A stretch of 64,000 bases of DNA from Trypanosoma brucei (GCA_000002445.1 AL929603.2:96001-160000); one strand, 5' to 3'. Positions 6,001 through 52,233 are shown, numbered from the stretch's first letter. A program made the numbers and translations. Notes: a model not told the origin generated them from the letters alone.

Positions 6001-7002
6001 TAACATAATCATTCTAATATTTAGTATGTATGTCTGTGTGTGTGTAGAAATGATGAAATGTAATCGACAGTCCCTTGACTCGGAATGCGGTATTAACGTG
6101 TCTCAGATTTTAAGCATTCTTGTTCTACAAGGGAAGTCATTCGCCTTTTTTTTCCTTTTTGCGCAAACAAAAAATAAAAAGAAGAATACAGGGGTTGTAG
6201 CGGATAACTAGCTTTTTGAATCGTAGGAATATATTATGAAGCATCTACTAAGGCACAATCGTCGTTATTTCACTTTCAACACTTCTTCTGACTCTATCTA
6301 CTTTTATCCATGTTTATAAATGATACTTTTTTTTGTGAAAGTTATAACAAGAAACTAACTCGTATTTTTACTCACCGTCTTCCTTATTTCTATATTTCGC
6401 AATTGTACCATGGCAAAATATCATTCTTGTTTCCTATTTCATTGAGCAGTTATGCTTGCAGAAGAAAACAGGATGAAAATAATCAAGACCTCACCAACAG
6501 GGTCCAGACATCCTTCAAAAAAGAACGAACAAAGAAGTTAACAACGCAACCCTTCCCACAAATGAGCGTCTGTCACTGTGCAAGAAAAAACAATGGCTCT
6601 TCAACTGCACACAACACGAGAAACGATATCAGCGGCTTCAATCCCACAGTTAAAGTCACTTGACGAAACACTCCGCATATGAGACCTTTGCAAAGCAATG
6701 TATTTGCTATTAAAAAAGAAAACGCATTCCTTCACGTGCCGTTTCAACAAACTGCTAGCCAAGAACTAAGAGTATCAACACACACAGGTGATATCTACGC
6801 GTCGAATATTTGCTGCCCAGCTGACTCCAAACTCACAAAGAGGAAACAACACGTAACCACTTACAGCCCAGCTGCTAGTGTCCTTTAAGTACATACAAAT
6901 ACACAACAGCAATCATTGTCACACCACTAACTTTAGGTATCATTTAATGCGTATTTAACAAACATGATGCCCGACTCCAAATGTGAAAGGCACTTGTCAC
7001 GC

Positions 7003-7026
7003 ACCCGCCCCGCCCCCCTCCCCACC
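7003..7026. promoter_or_regulatory. C-rich / GC-box-like island (CACCCGCCCCGCCCCCCTCCCCACC) in otherwise AT-rich DNA, a possible strand-specific G-rich Pol II start-region element (speculative)
   Basis: The island is seen directly in the sequence. It is mirrored as a G-rich tract at 52209..52233. It lies between the leftward RHS at 2052..3080 and the rightward gene set. Confidence 0.2.
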
Positions 7027-10000
7027 AATTCCACAGAATGGTGGAAACAGAGCGGCAAAGGAGGAGCGGCGCGGCACTGTTAAAATAGAGCAGCTGCGCA
7101 TCAGTTGCATTGATTTTGTGGAATGCAGAGAAACCACCAGTTGAGTTTAGAGTAAAGGATGCCTCCCATAGAGCCGTGACGGCAGAATATGATGTAGACG
7201 TCGCGATTCTTTTTTTTTGTTTTGCTGCAACCTCCCGAAATGCGTTGAAACGCCAAGCGCTACCGTCACCCCCAGAGCAAAAACGTTGGGGAGAAAAAGC
7301 GGAACAATGCGTGGGTTGTGGCGCTGAAACCACAATTACCAACTGGCAAGGTGGATGGACCGCGACAGGTGAGCGGGCAAGGGGAGGTATCGCGATATGT
7401 TTGTGAAATGTGGGGAAATGTAAGAAAAGAGACCACTAAATATGATAACGATGTCAGAGCAACGAATATGAATGGCGTACAATTCCGTTCAGAAACACTG
7501 TCTGGAAACTCTGTCCGTAAAACAACAACCGGCAGCACCGACGAATTCGTAACAGAAGGTTGCGGGATGCCAGCCAAAAAAAAAACCATCAATAGGCCAC
7601 AACCACACCGAATCAGAAAGTCCATGTAAAAGTAACCAAATACACGCAGCTCAAACGCTCGAATGTTGGATACGCGGCAGGTGACACGACGGAAGGAATA
7701 TTATCCGGCGCTTGGAAGCATGTCACCACCGCAACGAATCCTCAGAAACTGGACAACTTCAAGTGTGGAGTGGCGGCTTGCATATGAACGCAGTTAATGT
7801 CAGAAAAGGGGTGAAAGGCACAGCGGGAGGAATGGCGGAGTAAAAAAGGCAGGGAGGCGGTGCCAAGACTCCCGAGCAGCCATCCGCTAAAACCTACGGC
7901 ATATGACATGTGTGTTATGGCCATCGCAGCGCAGGAGGAACTGTTGCAACAGATCAGACATGACTGTTATGGGCCCGTCACTGCCTTCAGAGGCTTTTCC
8001 AAACGAAAGGAAAGAGCGCAATGAAACAGAGTGATGCTGACGTGTGCAGAAGTCTGAAGGCATTATATCAGCGAGGTCTGTGGTGACTAAAAGCCTGAGT
8101 TGGATGCATGGTTGGAAGGGTGGTGGATCCTGCGAATAGTTGAAAGTAGGGTGCCTGTACTTTATTTCTCATATACTCGCGTGCTCCGTATACAAAATAT
8201 AAATGCGAAATGGAGCTAACAAACGCGCCAGCAAAGTGACTCTGTTCCTTTACAATGTCCAGACAATTCTTACTAAGACTCTTAAAGCTACTGGACCGAA
8301 GGAACCTCACGACCATGTGCAGCCGGCAAACGTACGAAAATGAGGAGCTGGCCGGCATCCCACCCTCTACTTGATAGCTGCTCTCAACTGGAATATCGGG
8401 GATTATGGATGGTGCAGAAAGCTCACCATTTCGTAGATTCTCCTGAATAGCAATGGAGTCTGAAGGTTAACCCAAAGAATTAAACTGTTGAACAGACCTG
8501 GTGACCCACATAGTCTTTTTTTGTGTGAAGAGTGTCGGACTGCCTTACTGCATCCCTTCGCGTGCATGCAAACTGAGCACAACGCAATGTCTCCTTTATT
8601 ATTTGAAGCATGAAAGCTCATGGATCATAGCCATGTGACAGAACGCCTTGATTACGTTAGACTGATAGGACCGCTGTGTATTTTTATCGTTTATGTTGGG
8701 ATGTGCATTTGATAGTAGCATCTGTTAATGTACAATTATTTTGATGGATTTGGCACATTACAGTGATTTCTTTTGAGAGTTTCTCTTCCCCCTCACTCTG
8801 AGTAGATGTGGGGTAACTGGTTACCTTTCTGACGTTAACATGGTTTGCCAGCTCTGTTTGGAAATGTTACGGTTTCCTCATAGACAGTTTCGAAAATTGT
8901 CCGTAAAGCTGTTTTGAATCCATGTTGCGGTTGTCACGAATCAGAAAAATTATAACGAAGACGGGTCTGCAACAAGTGATTGTGAGTAAGCGGCAATACT
9001 GCGTATCAAGTAATGTCACATCATGATGATTACAGTGCTGCTTCACAACTTCAGCATAGGGGAATGGCGGAATCGTTTCAAATGCGGAACAAATAATGAG
9101 AGTTCAATTCTTCCTTATTAAATTCCCGTGGCCGCATAAACTGTATGCAGGTGAAACATTTATCAAGGAAACTGTATTTACGAGACTTAATTCAAGGAGA
9201 GATTAGGAATGCAGATACTTCATGCTTTCACTGAACAGCCGTACATCAGACCTGTCAACTCCATTAAGTGACTGAGGAGTTAACCCATTGTAAGGTGTAT
9301 GAACATGGAGACATGGTTTGAGCAACCAACAACCAGTATTCAGTATAGTTGGCTTATGTGAAACCAAAACATCTGCATTCGTGTATGTTCAACCTGACAG
9401 CTTCGCTTACCCTTTTGTTAAGCTATAAGACACTCTTCCAGGTGTATGCAACAAAATACAGTTATGCGCGTGATCTTGCGAGTGAGGATGATAGTCTACA
9501 GGAAACATGCGAAACAGGAAAAATATATATTGAGCTGATCTGAATCCATTTGATGCAGAATGTAAGAGCACAACCCAGCTGATATTTTCGTATTAACCAA
9601 CACACTAAAGAATGATTTAAGAAGCAGGAAAAAGTTGATCCAAACAGCACTTAGCCTGGAGTTGTTTCCAATGCTCCTAGATAATAATGTGTATGATGCG
9701 TATGGGGGTTCATTACTTTTTGAGGGAGTATGAAAAAACGATGATGGGCAGAAACTGTTCGGAAGATGACAATCTTTACCATTCTTATTATTAGGTTGAC
9801 ATCCATTTTGTGATGGTTTAATGGTTTAGTATGTATGAGTGCTTTATGCTCGCTTTATTTGAACACAAACTCATGCATGCGCGAAAATTGTGAAGCTGCA
9901 TACCCACAGATATCAATTAAGGGCATCAAACTTTTGGTGTAAAGCAGTCATTTTCATATGAAGTTAGCATTCCGAAACAGTTACTTGGGAAAGGAAATTG

Positions 10001-14958: not shown

Positions 14959-16380
14959 TATTACTGAGCGCTGCTTACGCACGCAGCTTATATAATGTCA
15001 CATGCGTTGTGATTTGTAGAGGGGAGTGGGCCACCAGAAATTAGGTCATTTTAATGTCAATAAGTTTTTACCGCTTGTTGGAGCCGTCATTCCCCGCACT
15101 TAACCTTTTCGAACCGAGGAGTTGGTAAAAGACGGCCAATCAACGGTATCGTCGACACCATGGCCATCAGTACGGGATTTTACATACGGTAACGAAGCGT
15201 GGGCATATGTTTTTCTTTAAACGTCATTTTTATTTTATTTTTCTGTACATTGTTGCTGTCACTTCTATGAAGTATAGCCAGAATGTCAGAGTAGTGCATT
15301 TGTGTGCAAAACAAAGAAAATAATACTCCCTTTGTTTTTCTCTCCCTCTTGGGTTGTATGAAAAGAGGGGGCTCCTGTTTGTAGGATGACAAGAGCTGTT
15401 TTGTTTCTTTCCTCAAAAAAAATTACATGCTCCATAGTTGCTCCAATATTCCCATCCCTTCATTGGAAAATGACCCGACGGCTCCGTCCATGTGAGTGAA
15501 GCGGTGTCCCTGATATTTGCCCTGATGCTTTTTCTTTTTTCCACCGTGGAACCTGCACTGCACTGCACTTGCGTTCCCTCATCCCCTCTTACAGTTATCC
15601 GTTTCACTTCCCCTGTTGAGGAATGCGTATTTCCAACCGTGCGAGATATCAAACAGTAAATCTGTCGGACAAACAAAAGGCTGAGAAATTCTTCACATAA
15701 ACTTATGAGCTTCCACCACTGAGGCACGCACGCTCACCAACACCAACAAAGTCAAGCAAAAGTCGCTGCATATTAATACTCAATGGCGCCATAATGTTCC
15801 CTTTTCCTTTTTCCTTCCGTTGGGGTTACACAACACTTGTGGGAACCCGCTTCACTTCGTCCTTTTCCAATTATGAAGGTAACTGTGTTTTGTTTGCCAC
15901 ACTTCCGCTTGTTATTTCTCCAACTGGTTTCACTTTCAGAAGTCGCGTGTACACCACTTGTGGAGGAAATATTACATTAAGCAAAACCAACAACGAAAAA
16001 AATGGCAATACATTCTAAAACATTCCCTCAACATTGCAGAACTCATGAAAGGAACCATGGTTACTGCCACCAGGCTAAGCAAAGACCAAAAGGCTTTTGA
16101 AATGTGTTTTCGAATCGAATGTACCACTGGTATTTCTTTAACATGCAAACACAACACAAATCACTGCATACACAAACACGAGTGCCAAGCTTCTTATAGA
16201 GATATTTCAATACCTGAAAAAGGGACCGGGACGCAAAGTTTGGGAATGGAATTTCCCCACCCGTAACGGTGATTATCTAAGACGCTCAATCAACACATTT
16301 CCGCCTGTCCACAGTTAATCGGAAACCGTAGTGCCCATATGTCTCCCTAATTACTGTTGTCCCTTCAGTTTTCACAGTAG

Positions 16381-16743
16381 ATGTTTCAATTGGTTTCTGC
16401 GGCCGAGGTAAATAAAGCTTATGTGTCATATCCGGGAGGTGTTTCCATGTGTCTTCGCTTTCCGTTTTGTCACTGCGTTTGGGCTCACGCAATGACATTA
16501 ATTGAAATTTCAGGCCACTACCATATATGGGTGGCTCGTGGAGAGAGTGAGGATTGGGATTATTCTAACAGCTTTGTGGTTGTGTGTGTCGTGCTTTTGG
16601 AAAATATTGCAACCAATGAAAGGGAAGGCAAGTGTCACCTTACTTTCCATGCTGCGACATCAATGCATAAGAATTATATGCTAGTTGCTCTGCGAGGGAA
16701 GGCCGTGAAGGCGAAGGTTAGCTTCCGGTTTAAGGAAGTGTAG
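16381..16743 (+). CDS. Hypothetical 120-aa ORF conserved in both arms (mirror at 48726..49151 -); possibly non-coding
   Basis: The ORF is present in both arms with about 11% aa divergence and no frameshift. No family was recognised. Confidence 0.2.
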   Translation: MFQLVSAAEVNKAYVSYPGGVSMCLRFPFCHCVWAHAMTLIEISGHYHIWVARGESEDWDYSNSFVVVCVVLLENIATNEREGKCHLTFHAATSMHKNYMLVALRGKAVKAKVSFRFKEV

Positions 16744-16924
16744 AGACTTCCTGATACTACTGTCAGAAACTACTGTTGCTGCGTGCTTCAGGCACTGGGT
16801 CAGTAATTCATAAATACAACAACGAGAATAAAATTAATCCCTTGTGGCTGCTAAGCGTGTAAGCAACTGAGAATAATAAACAGTATATTTTTGCCACACT
16901 TTATTGATTTCTTTATATATACAA

Positions 16925-16965
16925 AAAACCTCATTACATTTATCATTTCTTTTGTGCCCAAAGAC
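16925..16965 (+). promoter_or_regulatory. Polypyrimidine tract plus AG, a candidate trans-splice acceptor region upstream of the LRRP
   Basis: TCATTTCTTTTGTGCCCAAAG precedes the LRRP ORF. This is a kinetoplastid trans-splicing convention and is not verified. Confidence 0.25.
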
Positions 16966-16971
16966 TGCTGA

Positions 16972-19900
16972 ATGAAGGTTAGGATTACTGACCATAACAC
17001 ATTTTGGCATGCACCTCAATTACTTCCTTATAACACTTCCCCCCCTCGTTTGATTCATCGCTTAGCTCTATTATTAAAAAAGAAAAAGCATTTCCTCAAC
17101 ACTCAGCACCTCAAGGAATCGGAAACGGGAACTACAATGTCAGGAAACCAAGGAAGAAAGCGACAGCGCAGCTCATCACCTGAGCAGTCAGAAGCTTTAA
17201 AGGAACCATCAACTACTGAACAAAATAAACTCACCACCGTTACAATCACCGAAGAGACGCGTGACGCCGGTAATGATGAAACTGTGATATCATTACTGAA
17301 TGAGCATGAGAAATTGATTAAACAAACGACACGGCTGGAAAGCAGTGTGAAGGCACTTAAATGTTTCATGAGTAATCTCACAGCTATGAGTGGCGAAAGG
17401 CAAGGTGGTGTGTGTGATGACACCGAATGCATACATAGAGTAACATTATATAATGCTGCTGATAATGCCTTCAGTGACGAAGGACTATATGAAGGTGCTC
17501 TTTCCTCACTCTGTGGCCGTATTCAAGCTAAGAAATTAACCATCACGTTATCAAAGGGTTGGAAATTTAACTCACGACAAGTCAGTAAGCTAAAGCAGTT
17601 AGAAGAGTTACGCATTGAATATCCGCGTGGAAAACTTGTGAATATGATATCTTTGAAGAGACTGCAAATGTTGAAAAGGCTTTGTCTCAGGAGCAACAAT
17701 ATTGACAACAATGACGGTCGTCACTTATTCAATATTGGAACATTGGAGGAGTTGGCTATTACTGATACCATGCAACTGACAAATATCAGAGGAATCTCTC
17801 GCTTGACTAACCTGAAGTGTCTTGAGTTAAATTCCACAAATATTGACGACAGCTGTGTGGAGGAAATAAGTGCATGTGCTAAACTGTCCAAACTGTGTAT
17901 ATCTAAATGCAACAATATCACAGACGCGACACCAATTTCACAACTTGCAGCGCTGGAAGAGTTGAATCTAAGCAATTGCCACATAACGAAGGGAATAGGA
18001 ACACTTGGCATGTTGTTGCGACTGCGTATGCTTGACTTGAGTGGTGTTCCTGTGGAAGATAATTGTCTGAAGGATTTGTGTGACTGTGGGTCTCTTGAAA
18101 GGCTGAACATTTCTTATCGTATTCAGCTGACAGATATCAATCCACTCTCCAATGCCACTGCTATTGAGGAATTGAACCTTAACGGTTGTCGCCGAATAAC
18201 ACGGGGGATAGGCGTTGTGTGGGCATTACCAAAGCTCCGTGTATTGCACATGAAGGATGTGCACCTGAGCGAGCCATCTCTCGATTCAGTTGGGACTGGT
18301 GGACCACTTGTAAAGGTCAGTCTTGATAACTGCGCAGGCTTTGGTGATATGACACTCTTATCCAGCATTGTTACACTCGAGGAGCTGAATATTCAAAAAT
18401 GTGCTGACATCATTAGTGGTGTGGGTTGCCTTGGTACACTGCCATACCTGCGTGTGCTTAACATAAAGGAGGCACACATCTCGTCCCTTGACTTTACTGG
18501 TATTGGTGCCTCAAAATCCCTTTTACAGCTCAATATGGAGAGTATCACGGGACTGAGTAATGTGGAAGCACTCGCCAACATTTTGACTCTGGAAAAACTA
18601 AGCCTTCACGGCTGCACGGGTATTGACGCAGGAATTGGATGTCTTGGAAACCTGCCACAGCTTAAAATGTTGGACCTGTCTGGCACAAATACCGACAATG
18701 AGTCTCTCAGAAGTTTATGCCTATCGCAGACAGTGGTGTCCCTCAACCTTTCCCATTGTTGGAAAATGACAAATGTGTCCCATATTTCAAGCCTCGAAGC
18801 ATTGAATGAACTGAATCTGAGCAACTGTTTTGGAATAAATGCAGGATGGGAAGCACTTGAAAAACTTCAGCAGCTACATGTGGCAATCCTCTCGAATACA
18901 CATATTACTGATAGAGACATATCCCATTTCAGCAACTGCAAAAACCTTATTACGCTTGATCTTTCTTTCTGCAATAAGTTACTTGATGTTACAGCTCTCT
19001 CTAACATCACTACGCTTGAGGAGTTGAATCTTGATAGTTGTTCAAACATCAGAAAAGGGCTGAGCGTTCTTGGAGAGTTGCCACGGCTTTGTGTGTTGAA
19101 CATAAAGGGTGTACAGTTGGAAGACTCAGTTATTGTTTCACTAGGGAATGGTAACTCATTTGTAAGGCTCAGTCTTGAGAACTGCAAAGGGTTTGGTGAT
19201 GTCGCGCCCCTCTCGAACCTTGTTACACTTGAGGAACTGAATCTCCACTACTGTGACAAAGTAACCTCTGGAATGGGAACACTGGGCAGGCTACCGCAGC
19301 TTCGTGTACTGGATTTGGGACGGACACAAGTTGATGATAATTCCCTTGAGAATATCTGCACATGCTCAAGCCCACTTGTATCATTAAATCTTTCGAATTG
19401 CAAGAAAATAACATCTATTTCTGCAATAGCTTCCCTTACAGCATTGGAGGAACTCAACATTGACAACTGCTGTAATGTAACATCCGGCTGGAATGTATTT
19501 GGTACACTTCACCAACTGCGTGTAGCCACACTGTCGAATACACGCACTAATGATGAAAACGTACGGCACGTTAGCGAGTGCAAGTCTTTGAATACACTCA
19601 ACCTTGCGTTTTGCAAAGATATAACAGACGTCACAGCACTTTCTAAAATTACCATGCTTGAGGAGTTGAACCTTGATTGTTGCCATAACATCAGAAAAGG
19701 TATTGAAACTCTTGGAACGCTTCCCAAGGCACGTATCCTAAGCATGAAGGAATGTTACATGGGAGACGGATATGCGCAACAATGTTCCATCCTTGGGAAT
19801 AGTAAGTCACTTGTGAAACTGAATCTTGAGAGGTCAAGAGGGCGCATATCTGTGAAAGCTCTGTCTAACGTTGCGACGTTGGAGGAATTGGTACTCGATC

Positions 19901-21318
19901 ATGCACGGAAAGTATGTTGTATACCGTCATTTTCCTGTCTACCGCGCCTTCGAGTACTGAATCTGAAATATACGGATATCAATGGTGATGTAACTAAAAA
20001 TATTTCCGAATCAAAATCGCTGCGATCACTCAACTTATCACATTGCAAATGGGTAACTGATATATCAGTATTATCTTCCTTATTGACACTGGAGGAGCTG
20101 AATGTTAACTGCTGCAATGGAATACGAAAAGGCTGGGAGTCGCTCGGAAAGCTGCCTCTACTACGTGTGGCAATTCTATCTGATACTAAAATCACCGCTA
20201 AAGATATAGCTTGCCTCAGCAGTTGCAAAAAGCTGGTGAAACTAAAGTTCTTCCAGTGTGAGAAGTTGTCAGATGTTACGGTGGTGTATAAAATTCAATC
20301 ACTGGAGGAGCTGATAGTTACGAGCTGTTCAGACGGCCTCAAGGGACTGAATGCCCTTGGTACACTCCCACGGTTGCGTTTTCACCATCTGCGAAATGTG
20401 AGAGGTAGTGATATATCTGTTGAATCTATTGGGACGAGCAAATCTCTCGTGAGGCTTCATATTGAAGTGGGCGAGGAGTTGACAGATATAACACCCCTCT
20501 CCAACATCACGTCCCTTGAGGAATTGTCATTGCGGGATTACCGTAAACCCCCGGAAGGAGTCGGGACACTTGGGAAACTGCCACGGCTTAAATCGCTGGA
20601 TCTCGGTTTATCTCGCATTAGCGATAGCACACTTTATTGTATTTGTCTGTCTCGATCAATTACGTCACTTAACCTAGACTCCAGTTGGAAACTAACAGAC
20701 ATATCTCATATATCAAATCTTACGGCACTGGAGGAATTGAATCTGGGAGGATGTTACTACATAACTTCAGGCTGGGAAGCACTAAGCGAATTACCACGAC
20801 TTCGTGTGCTCAACTTGGAATTCACCAGAGCTACGACGCGTGACGGTGGATACTATATCAGCAGATGCAAATACCTCGTCACACTCAACCTTGAATTGTG
20901 TGATATGACCGATGCTTCATGTCTTGCTAATATCAAGACACTGGAGGAGTTGCATATAGGAGGATGCGACGAGCTAACGCAGGGGTTTAGTGCACTTTTC
21001 ACTCTTCCACAGTTGCGCATTCTTAACTTGATTTGTTCTCTTATTACAGATGAAGATCTCAGGGAAATTCAACCACCCCATACCATTGAGGAGCTCAATC
21101 TTTCTTATTGTGTGGAGCTTAATGATATTACACCACTTGGGAGGATAAAATCAATTAAAAAATTGCATCTCCGTCAGAGACATGATGTCAGAAGGCCTAC
21201 AGAAGGATTCAGGAGTCTTTTGGAATTGCCATGTCTTTCTTGGGTTGACCTAGACAACGTGTATGGCTGGTCTGATGTTTCTTGTGAACTGAGAAAAAGG
21301 AGAGTACATATCCGTTAA
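16972..21318 (+). CDS. LRRP: Leucine-rich repeat protein (LRRP, ESAG8-like), 1448 aa; the likely true start is Met56 at 17137 (MSGNQGRKRQR...)
   Basis: The ORF is uninterrupted over 4.3 kb. It has a basic/coiled-coil N-terminus followed by about 16 super-repeats of roughly 70 aa. Each super-repeat is three LRRs, with the pattern ...ITD.TPLSN.T.LEELNLS.C..IT.G...LG.LP.LR.L.L.G. An identical-length paralogue lies at 44214..48560. Confidence 0.9.
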   Translation: MKVRITDHNTFWHAPQLLPYNTSPPRLIHRLALLLKKKKHFLNTQHLKESETGTTMSGNQGRKRQRSSSPEQSEALKEPSTTEQNKLTTVTITEETRDAGNDETVISLLNEHEKLIKQTTRLESSVKALKCFMSNLTAMSGERQGGVCDDTECIHRVTLYNAADNAFSDEGLYEGALSSLCGRIQAKKLTITLSKGWKFNSRQVSKLKQLEELRIEYPRGKLVNMISLKRLQMLKRLCLRSNNIDNNDGRHLFNIGTLEELAITDTMQLTNIRGISRLTNLKCLELNSTNIDDSCVEEISACAKLSKLCISKCNNITDATPISQLAALEELNLSNCHITKGIGTLGMLLRLRMLDLSGVPVEDNCLKDLCDCGSLERLNISYRIQLTDINPLSNATAIEELNLNGCRRITRGIGVVWALPKLRVLHMKDVHLSEPSLDSVGTGGPLVKVSLDNCAGFGDMTLLSSIVTLEELNIQKCADIISGVGCLGTLPYLRVLNIKEAHISSLDFTGIGASKSLLQLNMESITGLSNVEALANILTLEKLSLHGCTGIDAGIGCLGNLPQLKMLDLSGTNTDNESLRSLCLSQTVVSLNLSHCWKMTNVSHISSLEALNELNLSNCFGINAGWEALEKLQQLHVAILSNTHITDRDISHFSNCKNLITLDLSFCNKLLDVTALSNITTLEELNLDSCSNIRKGLSVLGELPRLCVLNIKGVQLEDSVIVSLGNGNSFVRLSLENCKGFGDVAPLSNLVTLEELNLHYCDKVTSGMGTLGRLPQLRVLDLGRTQVDDNSLENICTCSSPLVSLNLSNCKKITSISAIASLTALEELNIDNCCNVTSGWNVFGTLHQLRVATLSNTRTNDENVRHVSECKSLNTLNLAFCKDITDVTALSKITMLEELNLDCCHNIRKGIETLGTLPKARILSMKECYMGDGYAQQCSILGNSKSLVKLNLERSRGRISVKALSNVATLEELVLDHARKVCCIPSFSCLPRLRVLNLKYTDINGDVTKNISESKSLRSLNLSHCKWVTDISVLSSLLTLEELNVNCCNGIRKGWESLGKLPLLRVAILSDTKITAKDIACLSSCKKLVKLKFFQCEKLSDVTVVYKIQSLEELIVTSCSDGLKGLNALGTLPRLRFHHLRNVRGSDISVESIGTSKSLVRLHIEVGEELTDITPLSNITSLEELSLRDYRKPPEGVGTLGKLPRLKSLDLGLSRISDSTLYCICLSRSITSLNLDSSWKLTDISHISNLTALEELNLGGCYYITSGWEALSELPRLRVLNLEFTRATTRDGGYYISRCKYLVTLNLELCDMTDASCLANIKTLEELHIGGCDELTQGFSALFTLPQLRILNLICSLITDEDLREIQPPHTIEELNLSYCVELNDITPLGRIKSIKKLHLRQRHDVRRPTEGFRSLLELPCLSWVDLDNVYGWSDVSCELRKRRVHIR

Positions 21319-23420
21319 TATTTGATCCATTGCTTCACTTTGTATAATTTAGCAACTTATTGCTGAGAATACGTTATTAAATTTAACAGCCAGTTTGAGT
21401 GGTTCGCTCACTGTAGGCACTATTACTCAAACAGATACCAGTAACAATTCATACGGATGATATTGTATGTTACACTATCTTAAATACGAGAAATACGAAG
21501 ATCTCATTACAGTCATGTAAGCGTTTAACAAATTAGTAAGTCATACCAATCATATATTGTGAAGAATAAAGAACAGTTAGGAAGGTGCGTGTGCGTGTAT
21601 GTGACAAGCTTTTTTCTCAATGGAAATTTTGATTTTAGTTGTAAGCGTAGTAATTATTGTATTATTCTCGTTCATATTACAACTATACCAAATGAACATA
21701 TCATTATATTGTATGCCATTCTAACTTTATGACTACACATCCACACACATATATATTGAATTATTATTACTATTTCTATCGTTCTTATTGTTATTACATG
21801 AAACACAACATTCACATTTAATTTTTACTCATAGCCACACCTGAAAAGTAAAAGCACTCAACATTCTGCAGTACTGTATACCTTTCAATGATATGAGGAG
21901 GTGAAGTTTATATACCATTAAAGTATAGTGAATATATTTCATTATTCTTATTATTATTTGCTTTACTGAAAGAAATGACAGAGTGACTTTACAATAAATT
22001 ATATCAGAGCAGCATCTTAACCACCAATTTGCTACACAGGAAGAGGATAATACAACACATCACGTGTCTCGTGATTCTTTTTTACACTTGCCACTGGTAT
22101 ATCTACATTCTCAAACAGTGCGATTGAATATTCTCGTTTCATTAAAATATTATATTATAACTTGTTGTATTTGTTTGGTTTTTTAATAACATAATTTATT
22201 TTATTACATTTCCTTTCAGAATTATTTGGGCCAAACTTTTGTGAAGATGTCATACAATCTGAATTCCCTTGCGCAGCAAAGGGTTGTGTACCGCCTTAAC
22301 CCATTAACATTTGTGCTACATGTGCATGGGAAAGTGTATTAAACATTTCACTGGTTTTGGGAAATATTATTTTCTTTCTTACAACATGATGCCTCAGAAG
22401 AACTGAAGGCGAGAGCAGATCCTTTCATTCATTTTATTTTCCTTTTCTCACCGTATCCGTATATGTTTATGACTTTCCAGAAAACACTGCTGGGGTAAAT
22501 TATGTATTTCTTCATATTTACTTTTTATTTGACAACAACAAGAAAGGGATTTCCTCCTCACACACTTAAATTAATTAGACACTGCTGTTAACTGATAAGT
22601 TACAGACAGCCGCACATTTAAGTTACACAAATCCACACCGATTCGAAATAGTAAAATATCAAATATTATGTATTTATTTGAGAAAAAAAAGAGACGAAAA
22701 GAAGCGCTGCATCTGAAGCAAGATGCATGTGAGTTCGAAGAACAACTGTCATTTGAATATCATATCCCCAAATTGTTTTGATTACATTATTAGCAGTAAA
22801 TGCTTACGGAACTTGGGAAGTGAATGACTACTGAAATTAGAAGCATGAGGACGCACCGCGATGGCACATGAAAGTAACATTGGTGGGATTTTTATATATT
22901 GGAAAGTGGAGTGGCTTTAAGGTGTTTTACATGATGTTTAGTTGGAGATTGAAATAATTCAAAAAGCAGTGAAAGACTGTTATGATACAGGAATCTTTTC
23001 GTTTACTAATTTCAAGCTCACTCCCGCGACGCACTATTTTCGGTTTGCATTGCAGGAGGTGGTATGATATATGCAACCGCTTATTTCTTATTTATTTATT
23101 TTTGCGAGTTTATATAAGTGTGGTTTGGTGGCGTGGAAAATTTTAGCATGTGGTTAATGTCTTTATGACAAGAAACTGCTCTGCTCGAGCGATGGTATTG
23201 GAAGGTTAAATATAAATTATATGTTTTATGAGTTAATCAAATGCTGAATGCTTCAACTGACTCACTCTTCAAACCAAAACACTTTCTCAGCTTTTCCACT
23301 CTCAGCTAAAAATGTAGTTCAGTTTCCAAACAGCACACCACATCTCATTCACCATCGGGTAAAGAGATATTTGTATGGGCAACACGAAAGTGGAGAAGTG
23401 CAGAAAGTAGAAATAAAGAA

Positions 23421-23435
23421 TATATATATATATAT
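23421..23435. repeat. (TA)n microsatellite (also 24191..24207; mirrored at about 42076..42097 and 41318..41335)
   Basis: Seen in the sequence. Confidence 0.9.
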
Positions 23436-26029
23436 CGAATTATGTTGGAACTGCAGGTATCATTCAACCTAAGAGTAAAAACACCCTTCCTTCTGTTGTG
23501 AGCCGCAACCATGCCGTGATGAAGTTACAAGTGGAAGGAGTTGACTCAAATCATTCATCACCTAATCTCTGTAATGTGAATATGTTTGTTGAGAGATATT
23601 CGTATGTTAATGAGAGACCATTATGCAGAGGGAAGAACAGCCGACGACTGCAACCTAAAACCCGTAATTTGCGGACTGTGATAAACTTTAATAGTTTCAT
23701 TTTATTATGTAAAGATGGCATCAGCAGATTATACTTGTAAGCTGTTTGAAGTCAAAACAACGATACACGGAAGGGAATGTACAAGTGGTGATTTAAATCG
23801 TATGTTTATGAGAAATTTGTAGTGTGAATCAACTGTTGAAATATGTTGTGCGACATTAACACCAGATTTTTTTTTTTCATATTATTCTTCTTTTCTTTTT
23901 TTTTTTGCTTGTCTGTCGAACAATCTGAGGTTTAGTTGATATATTCCTGAGTTTCATCACATGTGTTGCTGTTTATATAATACTAATCGTTACAAACTAA
24001 ATATCTGCAGTAAGTATATTAAAAGCATACGATTTGTCACCACCTCTTGTTTAATTTCTCTTTATTCAAACGGCACTTTCTTTTAATCTTGTAAATAATT
24101 TTTTTATCGTTGTTTCATTTGTTTGTACCCTTCATCCTCTGCGCACAGTGTTGTATTTATTTGCTTCTACACGCTCGCAAAAAAAAAAATATATATATAT
24201 ATATATCATTTTTAAACAAATCGCTTTTGTGACTGATGTTTGTTCGGTTTGCATCGTATTATAAGTGGAATGTAAGATTCGTTGATTAAACATTTCATGG
24301 CGCATCATTACCAATTTGTTTGCTATGAACTCACAATTAACCATGAGAAAGGTTTTTACGACTCATACTCCCTGCATAAGTGCAATGCACTGAAGGAATG
24401 TAATTTAATTAATTAATCTATTTATTTTTTATTACTATCATTTTTATTACCATTATTATTGTCAGTATTAATATTCAGGTTTTCATCCATCACTATTTTA
24501 TTATTTATATTTTCTTTCCAACATCTGTTTCAAGAAACATGGTCGATTGGAAATAATGTAAACATCAATGGTTAGAGAAACTTTGATTTGCCTTGAGCGT
24601 GCAGATGCGCACAGTTCAAAAGGTTTCAGAAAGGTGATGGGGAACTTTAACCATATTTTTTATTACTGAATTCTTTCTCTCAAATGTTTTTGTTCTTTTG
24701 TATTGCACTTACATTCAAAACCAATTGGGCAGCGCTTCGAAGACAGTCAAGTGGCGTATGGAAATATTTGCGTATTGGTGGTTCTTTAAATTGTGATGAT
24801 TACGTTCCTAACGGTGATGGAAAAAAATTAACATATGAATGTGTGTTCAATAATAATAATTATTATTAAATGCCAAGTTCCCTTACATTTTGTATCAAAT
24901 AGTGAGTCTTTTTTTTAATCTCATTTTTTTAAAATGCGTATCGAGGTTTAGGAGGCACAATGTTGCTTAAAACTCAACTCTCACGAAAATGACACAAATT
25001 AAGGGAAGCTTCTATCGCAGCCACCATTTCCATGTGTGCAACAGTAATCGAGTCATTGTAACAATATATTTTTTGCGCGTGTGAAGTGTGAAATCCTCAT
25101 GAGAACTCAAAATTTACTACAATAATACTCATTATGCAAGGTGCTTTGAGTGGGTAAGGCGGCGCAGACTCAAATATCCAAAACAATTTATTTTCCCATA
25201 TGGCGGAACGAACGGAAACTGTAGTGAAACACACACTGCAAAGCGAGAAAAGTATATCTCCTGGTGCCGACACTCTCCAACGATGTGAACACAAACTCTT
25301 CATTTACGAACAGGAGGCTTCAGTTTGTTTATTTGTTTGTTTGTTTTTGAATCCATTCCTCACACCAGCGTCCAACATTAAATACAGGGAATTCAGAAAC
25401 TTTATCATGACCATTATTGTTGTGTCTTGTAAGATGATGCATATTTTATGATAGGAACTTACTGGGCACCAGCAGCCAACAAAGAAATACGAAAGAATAC
25501 AACAGTGATAAACATATATTACCTTGAAGTTACATGTGTACATTTGCGCGGAATTAGCTCAGTGGTGTTTGCGAACTCAGAGAATGAGGAAAACCAACAG
25601 TCAGATGAAATGAATAAAATACCAAATGTCGTGCATTCCTTGGAGGCATGAAAATAGATTCAATAACGCTAAGGTGTGACAGCAATGAGGCATGCCTCTG
25701 CTTGTAAACATGCGTTAAAAAGAGGGGAAATGTCAGTGAATACCTGAGGCAGCGCCAAAACTATTTTTTTTAATGGCCACCATGCTGCAGTAGAGCACTG
25801 TGGAAATATTTTCATTGGATAGAAAAATGTGTGTGGAAAGCTTATTAAAATTATTTGAAATTTATAACTGTTCTATCTGAGTAACCATGTGCGTCCTTTA
25901 GTATAGGAATCCCTTTGCGATAAAGCTTTTGTATCCTTTAAAAGGAAACACTAAGAAGCCGAATTAGTTAGAAAAGTAAAGCAAATATTTTAATCAAGAA
26001 CAATACTCAACATTTTGCTTCAGGACACC

Positions 26030-26517
26030 AGACACTTATTCTGGGAGAAAAGCGTCTGAGGGAACGTGAAGCAAGAGGTGATAATGTTTTCAGTTTATAT
26101 GGCTCCGTATGCAATTCAAAGTGGAGTGACATTATAATGGACAATGGAACTCAAATGCTGGGCATGAAGTTTGTTGATGGAACGCGTGCTGATGATATAA
26201 TGTGGAAAGATGAAGAAGTTAATGTCGTCCCCAAAATTGAGGAAACTTTTGAACATAAGCCGGAACGCACGGGAAGGAGGTGAAGCAACGGTTCCAACAT
26301 CTTAAATGGAGTGGTCGTACTCACAGTTTAATATTTAAATTCACAATGACATTCTCATTCAGAGAAAGGACTGGAGACTGAAATGTTGTGGAAAGAAAGC
26401 TCTGCGCTTGGCCAGCTGAGGAAACTCGAATACTAAGACACGCACCAAATCCTTACATTGTGATTGGAAACTCCAGAATCAGTAAGTCACTGGCCATCGG
26501 CTCACTTCTCCTTCACA
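26030..26517 (+). pseudogene. RHS: RHS gene 5' portion (degenerate) upstream of the ingi insertion
   Basis: The translation reads ...LYGSVCNSKWSDIIMDNGTQMLGMKFVDGTRADDIMWKDEEVNVVPKIEETFEHKPERT.... It parallels the RHS at 60384 (LYESIYNAKLSHIIIDDGTQPLGMRLVDGMPNEGLMWKDEEVNVVPEIEETLEQKPERT). A P-loop remnant reads IVIGNSRISKSLAIGSLLLHTL. The frame is interrupted by stops. Confidence 0.75.
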
Positions 26518-27674
26518 CCCTGGCGATGCCGGCCACCTCAACGTGGTGCCAGGGTCCAGTACCCCGTATCATCGGGGGAAGCCAAGAGCCAGCAGAGTTC
26601 CTTTCATGGGGAACACTGCTGTGCTCCGGCTACGGCATCATACAGCACAGGGATCAGCAGCGTCTTGCTGGGACACCGTTTTTCATTTGTCGGTCCCTGG
26701 GCACGTGCCAGCGTGCCATCAGCAGTATCATCCGCACTAAGATGCTGCTGTCCGGTGATGTGGAAGAGAATCCCGGCCCGTCGTTGCGCGGGATGCAGTG
26801 GAACTGCGCCGGGCTATCTCAAGGAAAGAGATTAGCACTCCACAAAACCCTTGTTGATGAGCGGATCGCCTTTTGTCTGTTGAGCGAGACAAGGATGACG
26901 CCTGGAGAGGCGGCTTGCTTTAGCGTTGCTGGCTACCAACATCACGGAATAGCTCGTAACTGCAAAGGAGGTGGTGTATCAATACTAGTGAGGGAGGACC
27001 TACCAGTCGAGACCGGTATGGCCGTTGTTGGTCGCATTGAAAAAGTGCATGCAACAATTCACCTTGCACGTGGAACGGCGCTGACTGTCACGTCGGCATA
27101 CATCCCACCAGAACACACCTTCACGGCAACTGACCTAGATACGCTTCTGACGACTGACGGTGCCCAGCTCATCGGTGCAGACGCTAACGCACACGCGTTG
27201 GCATGGGATCGCGCGAGCCCGCCAAATACCAAGGGTGAAACCCTCACACAGTGGTGCATTGACAACCAGTTTCTGGTATGCAACACTGGTGAGTGCACCA
27301 GGTACGCGCGCCACTACGGGGAGTCCACCCCTGATGTGACACTGTCAAGGAATTGCACAGTGTACACGTGGACATCGCTGTATTCTCCCGATAGCGATCA
27401 CCATCACATATTTTTCGACGTTATCGTTGGAGACGACACAGGTGCACTGAGTTGCCCGCGGCTTCAAAAGCCCATGTACGCATGGCTAAAAGCTAACTGG
27501 AGGAATTTCCGTCTCAAGGTTGACGAGCTCTGCAGGAAAATTGGTAGAGAGAAGAATGTCAACACCCTGGAACAGAAATTGAGCTCCGCCATCCGCATTG
27601 GACACCTGAGCTCGCGAAACTCGATGAAGAGAGCGCTGGATGCGGACCCTCCCACCGAAGGGAAAAGTTGGTAG
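26388..27674 (+). CDS. Chimeric reading frame in which the RHS P-loop remnant is fused in frame to the ingi N-terminal APE-like endonuclease region
   Basis: The translation reads ...SLAIGSLLLHTL|AMPATSTWCQGPVP...QWNCAGLSQGKRLALHKTLVDERIAFCLLSETR.... The endonuclease part belongs to the element. The first 130 nt are RHS-derived. Confidence 0.7.
   Translation: MERKLCAWPAEETRILRHAPNPYIVIGNSRISKSLAIGSLLLHTLAMPATSTWCQGPVPRIIGGSQEPAEFLSWGTLLCSGYGIIQHRDQQRLAGTPFFICRSLGTCQRAISSIIRTKMLLSGDVEENPGPSLRGMQWNCAGLSQGKRLALHKTLVDERIAFCLLSETRMTPGEAACFSVAGYQHHGIARNCKGGGVSILVREDLPVETGMAVVGRIEKVHATIHLARGTALTVTSAYIPPEHTFTATDLDTLLTTDGAQLIGADANAHALAWDRASPPNTKGETLTQWCIDNQFLVCNTGECTRYARHYGESTPDVTLSRNCTVYTWTSLYSPDSDHHHIFFDVIVGDDTGALSCPRLQKPMYAWLKANWRNFRLKVDELCRKIGREKNVNTLEQKLSSAIRIGHLSSRNSMKRALDADPPTEGKSW
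26506..26517 (+). repeat. Target-site duplication TTCTCCTTCACA (5' copy)
   Basis: The identical 12-mer recurs at 31724..31735 immediately after the ingi poly(A). Confidence 0.85.
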
Positions 27675-29695: not shown

Positions 29696-29740
29696 CGGCT
29701 GCTGAAATGGCTTCCGGCTTACAGAAGCACACCGAGCAGG

Positions 29741-31084: not shown

Positions 31085-31723
31085 AGGTAGAGCGCGCTGT
31101 AACCAGCCAACGCGGCGACTGCGAAGAAACGTCGCTGCACTTGATGAGCTGTCCCGGTTTGAAGAAGTTACGTGTCAGGTTTGCGGTAGAAGGTGAGTGT
31201 GTGCGGGATGTATGCTTCTCCAAAAGGCTGGCGCAATTTCTCATTGCGGTTGAACGGAGCCGGCCGCAGGTGAAGTCCTCACCTAAGGTAACAGTCATAC
31301 AACCCACTCTTCCTTCTGCAACTTCCCCCCTTATTGCCGAGTGTGGAGCTAGCAGGAAAAGCACCGGACGCAGGAATAGTCCAGACACCCTCAGAGACAG
31401 AGGAGGTATGCAGTCAACAAGCAACAGAAACAGAAAGAGGGGGAGAGAATAATAAACGAATAACAAAAATCAAAACAAAAGGATTGCCAATTGACATCTT
31501 TTGGAGAGTCCAGGGTGGGAGGCTTCTCGCCCCATCTGCTGTATTCCGTTCATATGCGGAAATACAACAAAAATTATAGAGAGTGTGTTAGGATGAATGA
31601 AAAAGGGAGACTCTGCCACAGTCGCCAGACCGATAGCATTTCAGGGCTCTACGGTGATGGCTGATGGCCGCGCCAGTGGGGGGAAACTCCCACGAAGGCA
31701 CGAAGAAAATTCAAAAAAAAAAA

Positions 31724-31800
31724 TTCTCCTTCACAAACTAAAGCATGATGCCAGAGTATTGCCTGTTACCGCATATTTTATAGGAGGTCATGCATGCATA
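31724..31800 (+). pseudogene. RHS: TSD (3' copy) followed by RHS continuation after the ingi
   Basis: TTCTCCTTCACA is followed by LLHKLKHDARVLPVTAYFIGG. Intact RHS reads LYKLLHYDAEELPVVAYFRG at this point. Confidence 0.75.
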
Positions 31801-32410
31801 TATATATGTATATGTATATATGTCTGTGTTGTATCTTGGAACGTTGCGCCCATATGGCAAATGGATTGGAAGACTGCTGCTGCATAAATTCATCAACCTT
31901 GGTCGCATCTATCGTACAGGAGATTCCGAAACGTATGTGTGCACGCTGCACTTTGAATCCGCATTGAGGGTGGTAACTTTCCAGTCGCGCAGAGACGTTG
32001 CACGACAACATTGTGTGAGGAGAGTCACTCATATACAGATCAGTTTTGTCTTGTGTTTTGAAGGTGATGCCGCAAGTGCTTTCGATTTTCCCAGGGTATT
32101 ATTTCCTTTTATTGACATGATAGGGTCATTGCCCGCAACCGCGGAGTGGAAACAGGAAACGATGCAGGATGTCAGCGTGTTGAACCGCCTGAGCGATATT
32201 TTCCTGAACTTCAGTAAAGCACAGCGCCTTCCAAATATCCATGAGGGAACAATCAACTCTCCACACACCATGCAACTTTACGGGTTCCCACCCATTTTCC
32301 CACTATTTGATACCTTGTTTGTTGTGGATTGCGACACAACCACCGAAGTTGAAAATCAACGAAAAATAAACGGTGGTGATGTTGCAATTCCAAACTGCTG
32401 GATCACATGA
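31790..32410 (+). CDS. Conserved 206-aa ORF, 100% identical in both arms (mirror at 37784..38404 -); possibly a remnant of an RHS 3' region
   Basis: Similarity to the RHS C-terminal region is weak (TYVCTLHFESALRVV versus TYVCVAHSESIKKRI). The ORF begins inside the (TATATG)n tract, so a genuine start is doubtful. Confidence 0.25.
   Translation: MHAYIYVYVYMSVLYLGTLRPYGKWIGRLLLHKFINLGRIYRTGDSETYVCTLHFESALRVVTFQSRRDVARQHCVRRVTHIQISFVLCFEGDAASAFDFPRVLFPFIDMIGSLPATAEWKQETMQDVSVLNRLSDIFLNFSKAQRLPNIHEGTINSPHTMQLYGFPPIFPLFDTLFVVDCDTTTEVENQRKINGGDVAIPNCWIT
31795..31830. repeat. (TATATG/TATG)n microsatellite at the RHS remnant junction (mirror at about 38375..38410)
   Basis: catatatatatgtatatgtatatatgtctgtg seen in the sequence. 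Confidence 0.85.
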
Positions 32411-35074: not shown

Positions 35075-35139
35075 ATTTGCGCCCCGTACCGCTATGTGAA
35101 GCAGGAGTTCGAGCTTTGAATAGTGTTACGCCCCCCGCC
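35075..35139. other. Non-palindromic central spacer of the inverted repeat (~65 bp)
   Basis: The left arm ends at ...CACTTCGGAGAAGGT (35074). The right arm starts at ACCTTCTCCGAAGTG (35140). The intervening GATTTGCGCCCCGTACCGCTATGTGAAGCAGGAGTTCGAGCTTTGAATAGTGTTACGCCCCCCGCCA is not self-complementary. Confidence 0.8.
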
Positions 35140-38458: not shown

Positions 38459-38470
38459 TGTGAAGGAGAA
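38459..38470 (-). repeat. TSD TGTGAAGGAGAA (reverse complement of TTCTCCTTCACA) flanking the RIME; second copy at 38972..38983
   Basis: Seen in the sequence. It is identical to the left-arm TSD. Confidence 0.85.
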
Positions 38471-38971: not shown

Positions 38972-38983
38972 TGTGAAGGAGAA

Positions 38984-52208: not shown

Positions 52209-52233
52209 GGTGGGGATGGGGGCGGGGCGGGTG
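52209..52233. promoter_or_regulatory. Mirror copy of the GC-box-like island (GGTGGGGATGGGGGCGGGGCGGGTG)
   Basis: This is the right-arm counterpart of 7003..7026. Its G-rich strand is oriented toward the rightward RHS array. Confidence 0.2.

What the first reader, a model, noticed from the sequence alone, without database searches (positions are those of the whole stretch)
16972..21318. Two divergent but fully intact LRRP paralogues (1448 aa each, zero indels): evidence of selective maintenance
The surrounding non-coding DNA in the two arms differs by many indels. Yet the two 4.3-kb LRRP reading frames have exactly the same length and no stops. They differ only by substitutions, concentrated around residues ~190-330 (for example GWKFNSRQ versus DENFDLQG, and KRLQMLKRLCL versus NNLDMLKRLRL). 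Both copies are therefore probably functional. The proteins are ESAG8-like, with about 16 three-LRR (~70-aa) super-repeats built around a conserved (T/A)LEELNL..C core, behind a basic, coiled-coil-like N-terminus (GRKRQRSSSPEQ...). The upstream 55 in-frame codons (MKVRITDHNTFW...LLLKKKKHFL) look like UTR. The true start is probably Met56.
Basis: partly seen in the sequence, partly recalled or inferred. Interest (0 to 1): 0.55.

Follow-up and report, generated by a model that had tools for sequence, protein, structure and literature searches.

The report
Paired, already-annotated trypanosome LRRP genes
These are two already-annotated leucine-rich-repeat protein genes of Trypanosoma brucei chromosome 1, lying in opposite arms of a large inverted duplication; both reading frames are kept open, but the proteins are only weakly constrained and are patchworks of variants shared with sister genes on other chromosomes, so the finding is real but ordinary.

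Summary
Both ORFs (16972-21318 +, 44214-48560 -) have 1448 codons, align without gaps and have no internal stops, with 242 nt and 129 aa differences. They are identical to XP_846398.1 and XP_846402.1, "LRRP, putative", of T. brucei TREU927 chromosome 1.

Frame preservation is beyond chance. Flanking arm DNA has 3.7-4.7 indels/kb, so 7-20 are expected in the CDS and none is seen. Random substitutions give no stop in 0.14% of trials.

Three points need correcting:
- Differences are not concentrated at residues 190-330 (22 of 129). The C-terminal third holds 71.
- dN/dS is 0.57 (NG86) but 0.78-0.82 once transition bias is modelled, not significantly below 1. Constraint shows only as avoidance of LRR scaffold positions.
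- The two copies are not simple diverging duplicates. At 81 of 129 differing positions both states occur in other paralogues. A third paralogue's matches are strongly clustered (79 runs against 114 expected). This indicates ectopic gene conversion.

The Met56 start is supported. "ESAG8-like" holds only as generic LRR: there is no RING, and the N-terminal domain is an orphan.

Verdict: known genes, with family-level maintenance plus mosaic conversion. Function is untested. Low novelty.

The parts
16972..21318 (+). [quoted passage not shown]
   Evidence: Pfam LRR_4 E=4e-54, LRR_14, LRR_8; exact sequence look-up
17137..21318 (+). Most likely true CDS of copy A, starting at Met56 (1393 aa): 150-aa family-specific N-terminal region with the basic cluster RKRQR, then about 51 LRRs organised as 16 super-repeats of about 71 aa, then the basic C-terminal tail RKRR
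16972..17136 (+). 55 in-frame upstream codons, probably 5' UTR or splice-acceptor region. A pyrimidine-rich tract at about 17021-17075 is followed by AG dinucleotides at 17081-17115
   Evidence: sequence; homology to the chr-11 paralogue ends 12 nt before ATG 17137, with an in-frame stop upstream there
44214..48560 (-). LRRP copy B, longest ORF (1448 codons), identical to XP_846402.1 / CAB95333.1. The Met56-equivalent ATG is at 48395-48393, so the likely CDS is 44214-48395
45611..45633 (-). B-specific hyperdivergent patch (aa 977-985, SVCGIYDVL against HARKVCCIP in A and in nearly all other paralogues). It is either a micro-conversion from an unsampled donor or a compensated frameshift (+1, +1, -2)
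16153..26765 (.). Left middle block of the inverted duplication that carries copy A. It pairs with 38724-49380 at 95.3% identity
38724..49380 (.). Right middle block of the inverted duplication that carries copy B
16527..22283 (.). Segment homologous to LRRP loci on other chromosomes (ORF plus 445 nt upstream and 965 nt downstream). This is the unit available for ectopic gene conversion
   Evidence: blastn of T. b. gambiense chr-9 locus L001 against the window
4520..9878 (.). Outer block of the inverted duplication. It pairs with 49364-54711 at 92.9% identity with 25 indels
31471..38720 (.). Inner, nearly identical core of the palindrome (arms 31471-35073 and 35141-38720, 98.8-100% identity, 67-nt spacer centred near 35107). 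Two truncated RHS N-terminal ORFs converge at the centre

Best explanation
The two ORFs are the annotated LRRP genes XP_846398.1 and XP_846402.1 of Trypanosoma brucei TREU927 chromosome 1. They belong to a small T. brucei-specific family of 1393/1394-aa leucine-rich-repeat proteins, with at least three copies on chr 1, three on chr 2, and relatives on chr 9 and 11.

They sit in opposite arms of a roughly 50-kb inverted duplication in an RHS/ingi-rich region and point towards its centre.

Shown:
- Their frames are kept open far beyond chance.
- Replacements avoid LRR scaffold positions, so the family is under selection for an intact LRR solenoid.
- The residues themselves are only weakly constrained (omega about 0.6-0.8 overall).
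- The two coding sequences are mosaics. Most A/B differences are variants that also occur in paralogues on other chromosomes and are arranged in tracts. The divergence therefore comes mainly from ectopic gene conversion among family members, not from independent mutation after the duplication.
- Translation most likely starts at Met56.

Inferred: the product is a soluble, probably nuclear or cytoplasmic protein-binding scaffold. It has no signal peptide or transmembrane segment, has terminal basic NLS-like clusters, and has about 51 cysteine-containing LRRs of the SKP2 / plant-NLR type. Its variable loop positions tolerate or favour change. The partner and the biological role are unknown.
For: Identity with annotated proteins.

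LRR domains.

Frame maintenance:
- No indels against 7-20 expected.
- No stops in 0.14% of simulations.
- Contrast with the T. b. gambiense chr-9 paralogue, which at similar divergence (93.2%) has three uncompensated frameshifts and many stops.

Structure-preserving selection:
- A/B replacements fall at 5.8% of scaffold positions against 12.4% of variable positions (Fisher p = 0.002).
- Among 7 intact copies, 14.0% of scaffold positions are polymorphic against 29.6% of variable positions (p = 2e-7).
- All seven are 1393/1394 aa from Met56.

Weak residue constraint: omega 0.575 by NG86, 0.82 spectrum-corrected, 0.78 by ML with p = 0.10.

Mosaicism:
- A-B identity (91.1%) is no higher than A or B against the chr-2 copies.
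- At 81 of 129 differing positions both states are present in other paralogues.
- In 100-aa windows the nearest neighbour of A or B is almost always another paralogue. The last 100 aa of B are 99% identical to the third chr-1 copy.
- At A/B-differing nucleotides the chr-9 paralogue matches A or B in clustered runs (79 against 114 +/- 7.5, P < 5e-5).
- Substitutions are clumped (variance/mean 2.46; 44 codons with more than one change).
- The CDS (5.6%) is more diverged than the arm DNA on either side that lacks paralogue homology (2.6% upstream, 2.1% downstream).

Start codon.

Soluble protein with basic termini.
Against: - No expression, splicing or protein data were available, so function of either copy is not shown.
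- Omega is not significantly below 1 by ML.
- Copy-specific (unique) changes do not avoid scaffold positions significantly (3.0% against 5.6%, p = 0.10), so current constraint on these two particular copies is not demonstrated.
- In T. b. equiperdum the chr-1 orthologues are annotated as split fragments (213 + 1102 aa; 243 + 1101 aa). In T. b. gambiense a family member is a pseudogene. Individual copies are therefore dispensable in some lineages, or those assemblies contain errors.
- DNA of the TREU927 chr-2 and third chr-1 copies could not be fetched, so conversion tracts were mapped with one DNA outgroup plus protein sequences only.
Confidence: 0.75

Rival explanations
1. Diversifying selection. 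The LRRP family is a repertoire of variable binding proteins, comparable to plant R-gene clusters. Each copy is functional. Positive selection acts on the variable loop positions after the beta-strands, and gene conversion shuffles the variants to create new specificities.
For: - Omega at the variable LRR columns is 1.78, against 0.63-0.68 at conserved columns.
- Differences pile up in the 'xxCxx' columns after the first and third LRR of each super-repeat.
- The CDS is more diverged than neighbouring non-coding arm DNA.
- The structure is mosaic.
Against: - Omega > 1 at variable columns is not significant (LRT p = 0.06) and rests on 355 codons of a single pair.
- Relaxed constraint at surface positions gives the same pattern with omega approaching 1.
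- No ligand, no surface exposure (no signal peptide or transmembrane segment) and no host-interaction rationale.
Confidence: 0.15
2. Passive maintenance. One or both of these two copies are functionally dispensable or silent. Their frames stay open only because frequent gene conversion from intact family members keeps overwriting lesions, so intactness says nothing about selection on these copies.
For: - Omega is not distinguishable from 1.
- 63% of differing positions carry imported variants.
- If only about 90 substitutions are de novo, the expected number of stops falls to about 2.6 (inference from the 2.9% stop fraction).
- Copy-unique changes include scaffold hits such as C1119Y, P1133S and L1138H.
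- The location is an RHS/ingi/pseudogene-rich region next to a degenerate adenylate cyclase.
- Family members are broken in T. b. gambiense and possibly T. b. equiperdum.
Against: - Even scaled to de novo changes only, several indels would be expected (indel:substitution ratio 0.08-0.16 in the flanks) and none is seen.
- The flanks that share paralogue homology (21319-22283) do carry indels (5.2/kb), although they are equally open to conversion.
- Seven family members keep exactly 1393/1394 aa.
Confidence: 0.2
3. Chance or youth. The duplication is recent and the copies have simply not had time to acquire disabling mutations.
For: The inner part of the palindrome is 99-100% identical.
Against: - The ORFs differ at 5.6% of nucleotides.
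- At that divergence the flanks have 3.7-4.7 indels/kb.
- Random substitution would introduce about 6 stops.
- The gambiense paralogue at similar divergence is broken.
Confidence: 0.02

Closest known systems
T. brucei LRRP family of 1393/1394-aa proteins (XP_846409.1 on chr 1; XP_951476.1, XP_951492.1, XP_951489.1 on chr 2; 'hypothetical LRRP1' CAD21749.1 and CAD21866.1; Tb11.53.0001)
   Same: The two ORFs are members: exact matches to XP_846398.1 and XP_846402.1, 89-93% aa identity to the chr-1/chr-2 copies, the same N-terminal domain, the same 16 x 71-aa super-repeat plan and the same length.
   Different: Nothing categorical. These two lie as an inverted pair in a palindrome. Copy B carries more private changes (26 against 21) and one unique 9-aa patch.
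ESAG8 (expression-site-associated gene 8) and its closest chromosome-internal relatives Tb927.1.3670 / Tb927.3.580
   Same: T. brucei LRR proteins with a basic NLS-like motif. The literature reports remote homology between ESAG8 and the LRRP family (PMC3605285).
   Different: - ESAG8 and its close relatives are defined by NLS plus RING motifs (PMC3605285). No RING or any other Pfam domain is found here.
- The N-terminal 150 aa have no homologue outside this family in 1.84 billion representatives.
- ESAG8 did not appear among the hits of the family search.
- The genes are not in a VSG expression site.
Cysteine-containing LRR proteins (SKP2-type F-box LRRs, plant NLR LRR domains, internalins)
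   Same: Best solved-structure matches by sequence are ROQ1 7crb (E = 1e-10), SKP2 (4e-7) and internalins. Pfam hits are LRR_4, LRR_14, LRR_FBXL-like and others.
   Different: No F-box, NB-ARC or TIR domain. The protein has an orphan N-terminal domain and a much longer, highly regular array of about 51 LRRs.
Large genomic palindromes with arm-to-arm gene conversion (for example primate Y-chromosome ampliconic palindromes; own knowledge)
   Same: Inverted arms around a short unique spacer, each arm carrying a copy of the same gene, with near-identity close to the centre.
   Different: - Arm identity decays to 93-95% away from the centre.
- The gene pair is not homogenised arm-to-arm. Instead it exchanges sequence with paralogues elsewhere.
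- The arms differ by a 6.3-kb and a 4.7-kb insertion.

Membership tests
T. brucei LRRP (1393/1394-aa subfamily) | Sequence identity with annotated family members | tested here: met
   Exact sequence matches to XP_846398.1 and XP_846402.1. 89-93% aa identity to chr-1 and chr-2 LRRPs.
T. brucei LRRP (1393/1394-aa subfamily) | Shared family-specific N-terminal domain of about 150 aa before the LRRs | tested here: met
   Alignment A2. The exhaustive search finds this domain only in the family.
T. brucei LRRP (1393/1394-aa subfamily) | 16 super-repeats of about 71 aa (three LRRs each), with total length 1393/1394 aa from Met56 | tested here: met
Leucine-rich repeat superfamily | Significant match to LRR profile HMMs above curated cut-offs | tested here: met
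   LRR_4 at 180-214 bits (cut-off 27), LRR_14 at 126-134 bits (cut-off 40), and LRR_8.
ESAG8 | RING-type zinc finger in the N-terminal region (diagnostic according to PMC3605285) | tested here: not met
   No RING or zf family in the whole protein at E <= 0.01. No Pfam hit at all in the N-terminal 182 aa at E <= 10. No N-terminal homologues outside the family.
ESAG8 | Nuclear localisation signal | tested here: inconclusive
   Basic clusters RKRQR (aa 7-11) and RKRR (aa 1386-1389) in Met56 numbering are present. Localisation is untested.
ESAG8 | Location in a telomeric VSG expression site, co-transcribed with the VSG | tested here: not met
   The neighbours in the window are RHS fragments, an ingi, and an adenylate-cyclase pseudogene. 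No VSG or other ESAG was found among the ORFs scanned.
ESAG8 | Direct sequence similarity of the LRR region to ESAG8 | not tested
   No ESAG8 sequence could be obtained with the tools. ESAG8 was absent from the 37 hits, but that search scores only the 8000 candidates sharing the most words.
Functional protein-coding gene (as opposed to pseudogene) | Open frame preserved beyond chance | tested here: met
   contrast pseudogene.
Functional protein-coding gene (as opposed to pseudogene) | dN/dS significantly below 1 | tested here: inconclusive
   0.575 by NG86. 0.78 by ML, p = 0.10. Scaffold positions are protected, p = 0.002.
Functional protein-coding gene (as opposed to pseudogene) | Trans-spliced mRNA and protein detected | not testable with these tools
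   No RNA-seq or proteomics data were reachable. A literature search for the accession numbers found nothing.

The most novel reading that the evidence does not exclude
The chr-1, chr-2 and chr-9 LRRP genes form a diversity-generating repertoire. Ectopic gene conversion between dispersed copies, some placed in palindromes, continually reshuffles variants at the loop positions of a rigid solenoid of about 51 LRRs. Positive selection (omega about 1.8 at variable columns) favours new combinations. This would be an intracellular analogue of plant R-gene clusters in a parasite otherwise known for VSG mosaicism.
Probability: 0.12. Interest if true: 0.55.

Novelty: already known. Interest (0 to 1): 0.2.

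Why it matters
It matters little beyond curation. The genes and the family are already in the T. brucei TREU927 annotation.

Three by-products are useful:
- The annotated 1448-aa models of the chr-1 copies probably start 55 codons too early.
- Pairwise dN/dS between such paralogues is misleading. Transition bias alone moves it from 0.57 to about 0.8, and the differences are imported by gene conversion.
- The family shows a clear, quantifiable mosaic pattern. This could be exploited to study ectopic recombination in non-VSG genes of RHS-rich regions, if anyone establishes what LRRPs do.

Tried and rejected
- AlphaFold2 of residues 56-420 with a 6-sequence alignment gave pLDDT 31.6. It is unusable, so no fold search was run and "coiled-coil-like" stays untested.
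- Homology search with the N-terminal 234 aa returned only T. b. equiperdum fragments of the same family.
- Pfam on the N-terminus found nothing.
- The look-up of encoding contigs has no record for the TREU927 proteins. DNA-level family analysis was therefore limited to two T. b. gambiense loci.
- A search for intragenic or in-window donors of the hyperdivergent patches, using 16-mers, found none. Only the aa 196-203 patch of B recurs, in the gambiense chr-9 copy. Conversion between repeats within the gene is therefore rejected for these patches.
- I tested whether copy-unique changes hit scaffold positions more often than shared ones, which would signal recent relaxation. There was no difference (p = 0.62).
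- The chr-11 paralogue was tested as donor of B's 977-985 patch. The alignment was poor, so this is rejected.
- Papers on chromosome I (Hall et al. 2003) and on RHS/LRRP1 (Bringaud et al. 2002) are not held. Accession and keyword searches found nothing on these two genes.
- Assembly artefact was considered and rejected. The arms differ by hundreds of substitutions, dozens of indels and two large insertions.


Full report
WHAT IS THERE

The window contains two ORFs of exactly 1448 codons, at 16972-21318 (+) and 44214-48560 (-). Aligned without gaps they differ at 242 of 4347 nucleotides (94.4% identity) and at 129 of 1448 residues (91.1%). Neither has an internal stop.

Both match LRR profile HMMs far above threshold (LRR_4, LRR_14, LRR_8 and others). 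[quoted passage not shown] The objects are therefore already annotated genes.

CONTEXT

The genes lie in opposite arms of a roughly 50-kb inverted duplication and both point towards its centre.
- 4520-9878 pairs with 54711-49364 at 92.9% identity.
- 16153-26765 pairs with 49380-38724 at 95.3%.
- 31471-35073 pairs with 38720-35141 at 98.8-100%, around a 67-nt spacer near 35107.

The left arm alone carries two insertions:
- A 6.3-kb segment with a degenerate receptor-type adenylate cyclase (9879-16152).
- The 4.7-kb internal part (26766-31470) of an ingi retroelement with an RVT_1 domain that spans about 26451-31724.

Truncated RHS N-terminal ORFs converge at the centre, and further RHS genes follow on the right.

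IS FRAME PRESERVATION MORE THAN CHANCE?

Yes. Arm-to-arm alignment gives 20 indel events in the 5447 nt downstream of the ORF (3.7/kb) and 25 in the outer 5359 nt (4.7/kb). The ORF needs none.
- From these rates, 14.6-19.5 events are expected in the 4182-nt CDS (P(0) = 5e-7 to 3e-9).
- Counting only the roughly nine downstream indels that are not in homopolymer or microsatellite runs, 6.9 are expected (P = 0.001).
- Placing 242 substitutions at random with the observed spectrum creates 6.3 stops on average. The frame stays open in 27 of 20000 trials.

A natural control exists. The T. b. gambiense chr-9 paralogue (L001:10001-14346) is 93.2% identical to copy A, yet has three uncompensated 1-nt frameshifts and many stops.

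Two caveats apply:
- The 756 nt upstream of the ORF are also indel-free, where about 3 would be expected.
- One 24-nt patch of copy B (aa 977-985) aligns about equally well as two 1-nt insertions plus a 2-nt deletion. "Zero indels" may therefore hide a compensated frameshift.

WHERE THE DIFFERENCES ARE

They are not concentrated at residues 190-330. That stretch has 22 of the 129 replacements, residues 331-949 have 30, and residues 950-1448 have 71.

Substitutions are clumped. The variance/mean ratio is 2.46 in 30-nt windows, 44 codons have more than one change, and identical tracts reach 183 nt. dS ranges from 0.01 to 0.18 between 150-codon windows.

SELECTION

Nei-Gojobori gives dN 0.0495, dS 0.0861 and omega 0.575. 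However, transitions outnumber transversions 168 to 74.
- Using the observed spectrum, the neutral N:S ratio is 2.38 and omega becomes 0.82 (binomial p = 0.08).
- A pairwise ML codon model (GY94, F3x4) gives kappa 4.45 and omega 0.78. The LRT against omega = 1 gives p = 0.10, and omega is 0.774 with p = 0.087 from Met56.

Constraint does show once the repeat structure is used. I aligned the 16 super-repeats (anchors at 258, 328..., 1324) and classed columns by conservation between repeats.

| Column class | Replacements A vs B | Omega |
|---|---|---|
| Scaffold | 5.8% | 0.68 |
| Semi-conserved | 8.6% | 0.63 |
| Variable | 12.4% | 1.78 (p = 0.06) |

The scaffold-against-variable contrast in replacements is significant (Fisher p = 0.002).

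Across seven intact family members, 14.0% of scaffold positions are polymorphic against 29.6% of variable positions (p = 2e-7). All seven are 1393 or 1394 aa from Met56. The family is thus selected for an intact LRR solenoid, while surface or loop residues are free or favoured to change.

THE TWO COPIES ARE MOSAICS, NOT SIMPLY DIVERGING DUPLICATES

- A and B (91.1%) are no closer to each other than to the chr-2 copies (A 91.8-92.3%, B 89.2-90.6%).
- With eight independent comparators, both states occur in other paralogues at 81 of the 129 differing positions. Only 21 states are private to A and 26 to B.
- In 100-aa windows the nearest neighbour of A or B is almost always some other paralogue. 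It changes along the gene. For example, the last 100 residues of B are 99% identical to the third chr-1 copy XP_846409.1.
- At the DNA level, at sites where A and B differ, the gambiense chr-9 copy matches A at 126, B at 103 and neither at 12. These matches fall in clustered runs (79 runs against 114 +/- 7.5 expected, P < 5e-5).
- The inter-chromosomal homology unit spans 16527-22283, that is the ORF plus short flanks.
- Within it, divergence between the arms is 5.6-6.4%. Arm DNA just outside it is only 2.1-2.6% diverged. Coding DNA being more diverged than neighbouring non-coding DNA is what imported variation predicts.

Ectopic gene conversion among LRRP loci is therefore the main source of the A/B differences.

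This weakens copy-by-copy inference. Imported variants are pre-filtered, and lesions can be overwritten from intact donors. Even so, the paralogue-homologous 3' flank carries 5.2 indels/kb while the CDS carries none. Selection on the frame, at least at family level, is still needed.

START CODON

ATG 17137 (Met56) is preceded by a pyrimidine-rich tract (about 17021-17075) and several AG dinucleotides (17081-17115). This is the usual layout of a trypanosome trans-splice acceptor (the layout is own knowledge).

The chr-11 paralogue (L002) is alignable only from 12 nt upstream of this ATG and has an in-frame stop two codons before its MGTT start. The chr-2 copies are annotated from this Met. Met56 is therefore supported, and the chr-1 models are probably 55 codons too long.

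WHAT THE PROTEIN IS LIKE

From Met56 the protein has these parts:
- A hydrophilic start with the basic cluster RKRQR.
- An N-terminal region of about 150 aa with no Pfam match even at E <= 10. It has no homologue outside this family among 1.84 billion representatives.
- About 51 cysteine-containing LRRs.
- A basic tail, RKRR.

There is no signal-peptide-like or transmembrane-like segment (maximum KD over 19 aa is 1.48). The nearest solved structures are generic LRR domains: ROQ1, SKP2 and internalins.

I infer a soluble, possibly nuclear, protein-binding scaffold. This step is inference only.

"ESAG8-like" is not supported beyond the LRR class. ESAG8 and its nearest relatives (Tb927.1.3670, Tb927.3.580) are diagnosed by NLS plus RING (PMC3605285), and no RING is present here.

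KNOWN OR NEW

Both genes and the family are already annotated. LRRP genes are routinely treated as a repetitive family marking RHS/ESAG-rich regions (PMC5359979; PMC6173450).

I found no held paper that analyses this pair. The chromosome I paper could not be read.

The mosaic pattern and the start-codon correction are modest additions. Novelty: already known. Interest: low.

The least ordinary reading not excluded is a conversion-driven, positively selected LRR repertoire. It rests on a non-significant omega of 1.78 at variable columns.

Noticed in passing
window 4520-54711, centre about 35107: The whole region is a roughly 50-kb palindrome. Arm identity falls from 99-100% at the centre (3.6-kb arms, 67-nt spacer) to 93-95% at the outside. 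[quoted passage not shown]
   Followed up: partly
window 34514-35119 (+) and 35092-35700 (-): Two truncated RHS N-terminal ORFs (RHS_N, DUF7578) converge exactly at the palindrome centre. The fold-back junction therefore lies inside an RHS gene, the family known as a retroelement insertion hot spot.
   Followed up: no
window about 26451-31724 against about 38470-39038: The left arm carries a full-length ingi (RVT_1 domain, poly(A) at about 31714-31724). At the same site the right arm has only the two ingi ends joined, a RIME-sized element of about 570 nt. A further ingi fragment (1-2118) is 97-99% identical to the left-arm copy in inverted orientation.
   Followed up: partly
window 9879-16152: A left-arm-only 6.3-kb segment holds a degenerate receptor-type adenylate cyclase (GRESAG4-like), with fragments in several frames at 12816-14958, upstream of LRRP copy A. 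The same cyclase-then-LRRP order is seen at the T. b. gambiense chr-11 locus L002.
   Followed up: partly
window 21253-21553 (and the mirror region in the right arm): The 300 nt just after the stop codon are the most diverged part of the arms (14.7%). This is probably because the 3' end of copy B, whose last 100 aa are 99% identical to XP_846409.1, was converted from the third chr-1 LRRP locus.
   Followed up: no
protein P0052 (XP_951489.1, chr 2), outside the window: This family member is 1110 aa, which is 1394 minus 284 aa, exactly four 71-aa super-repeats. This suggests an in-frame unequal recombination between super-repeats.
   Followed up: no
L001:10001-14346 (T. b. gambiense chr 9) and T. 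b. equiperdum proteins P0039-P0041, P0043: The gambiense chr-9 copy is a true pseudogene with three frameshifts. In the T. b. equiperdum assembly both chr-1 copies are annotated as split fragments, and no clear orthologue of copy B was seen. These may be real decay or assembly errors.
   Followed up: partly
window 25637 (right-arm equivalent): A 39-nt insertion/deletion difference between the arms is the largest small indel in otherwise 98-99% identical non-coding DNA.
   Followed up: no
window 59208-59317: A short degenerate tandem array (19-nt unit, 6 copies, 69% matches) lies between RHS genes.
   Followed up: no
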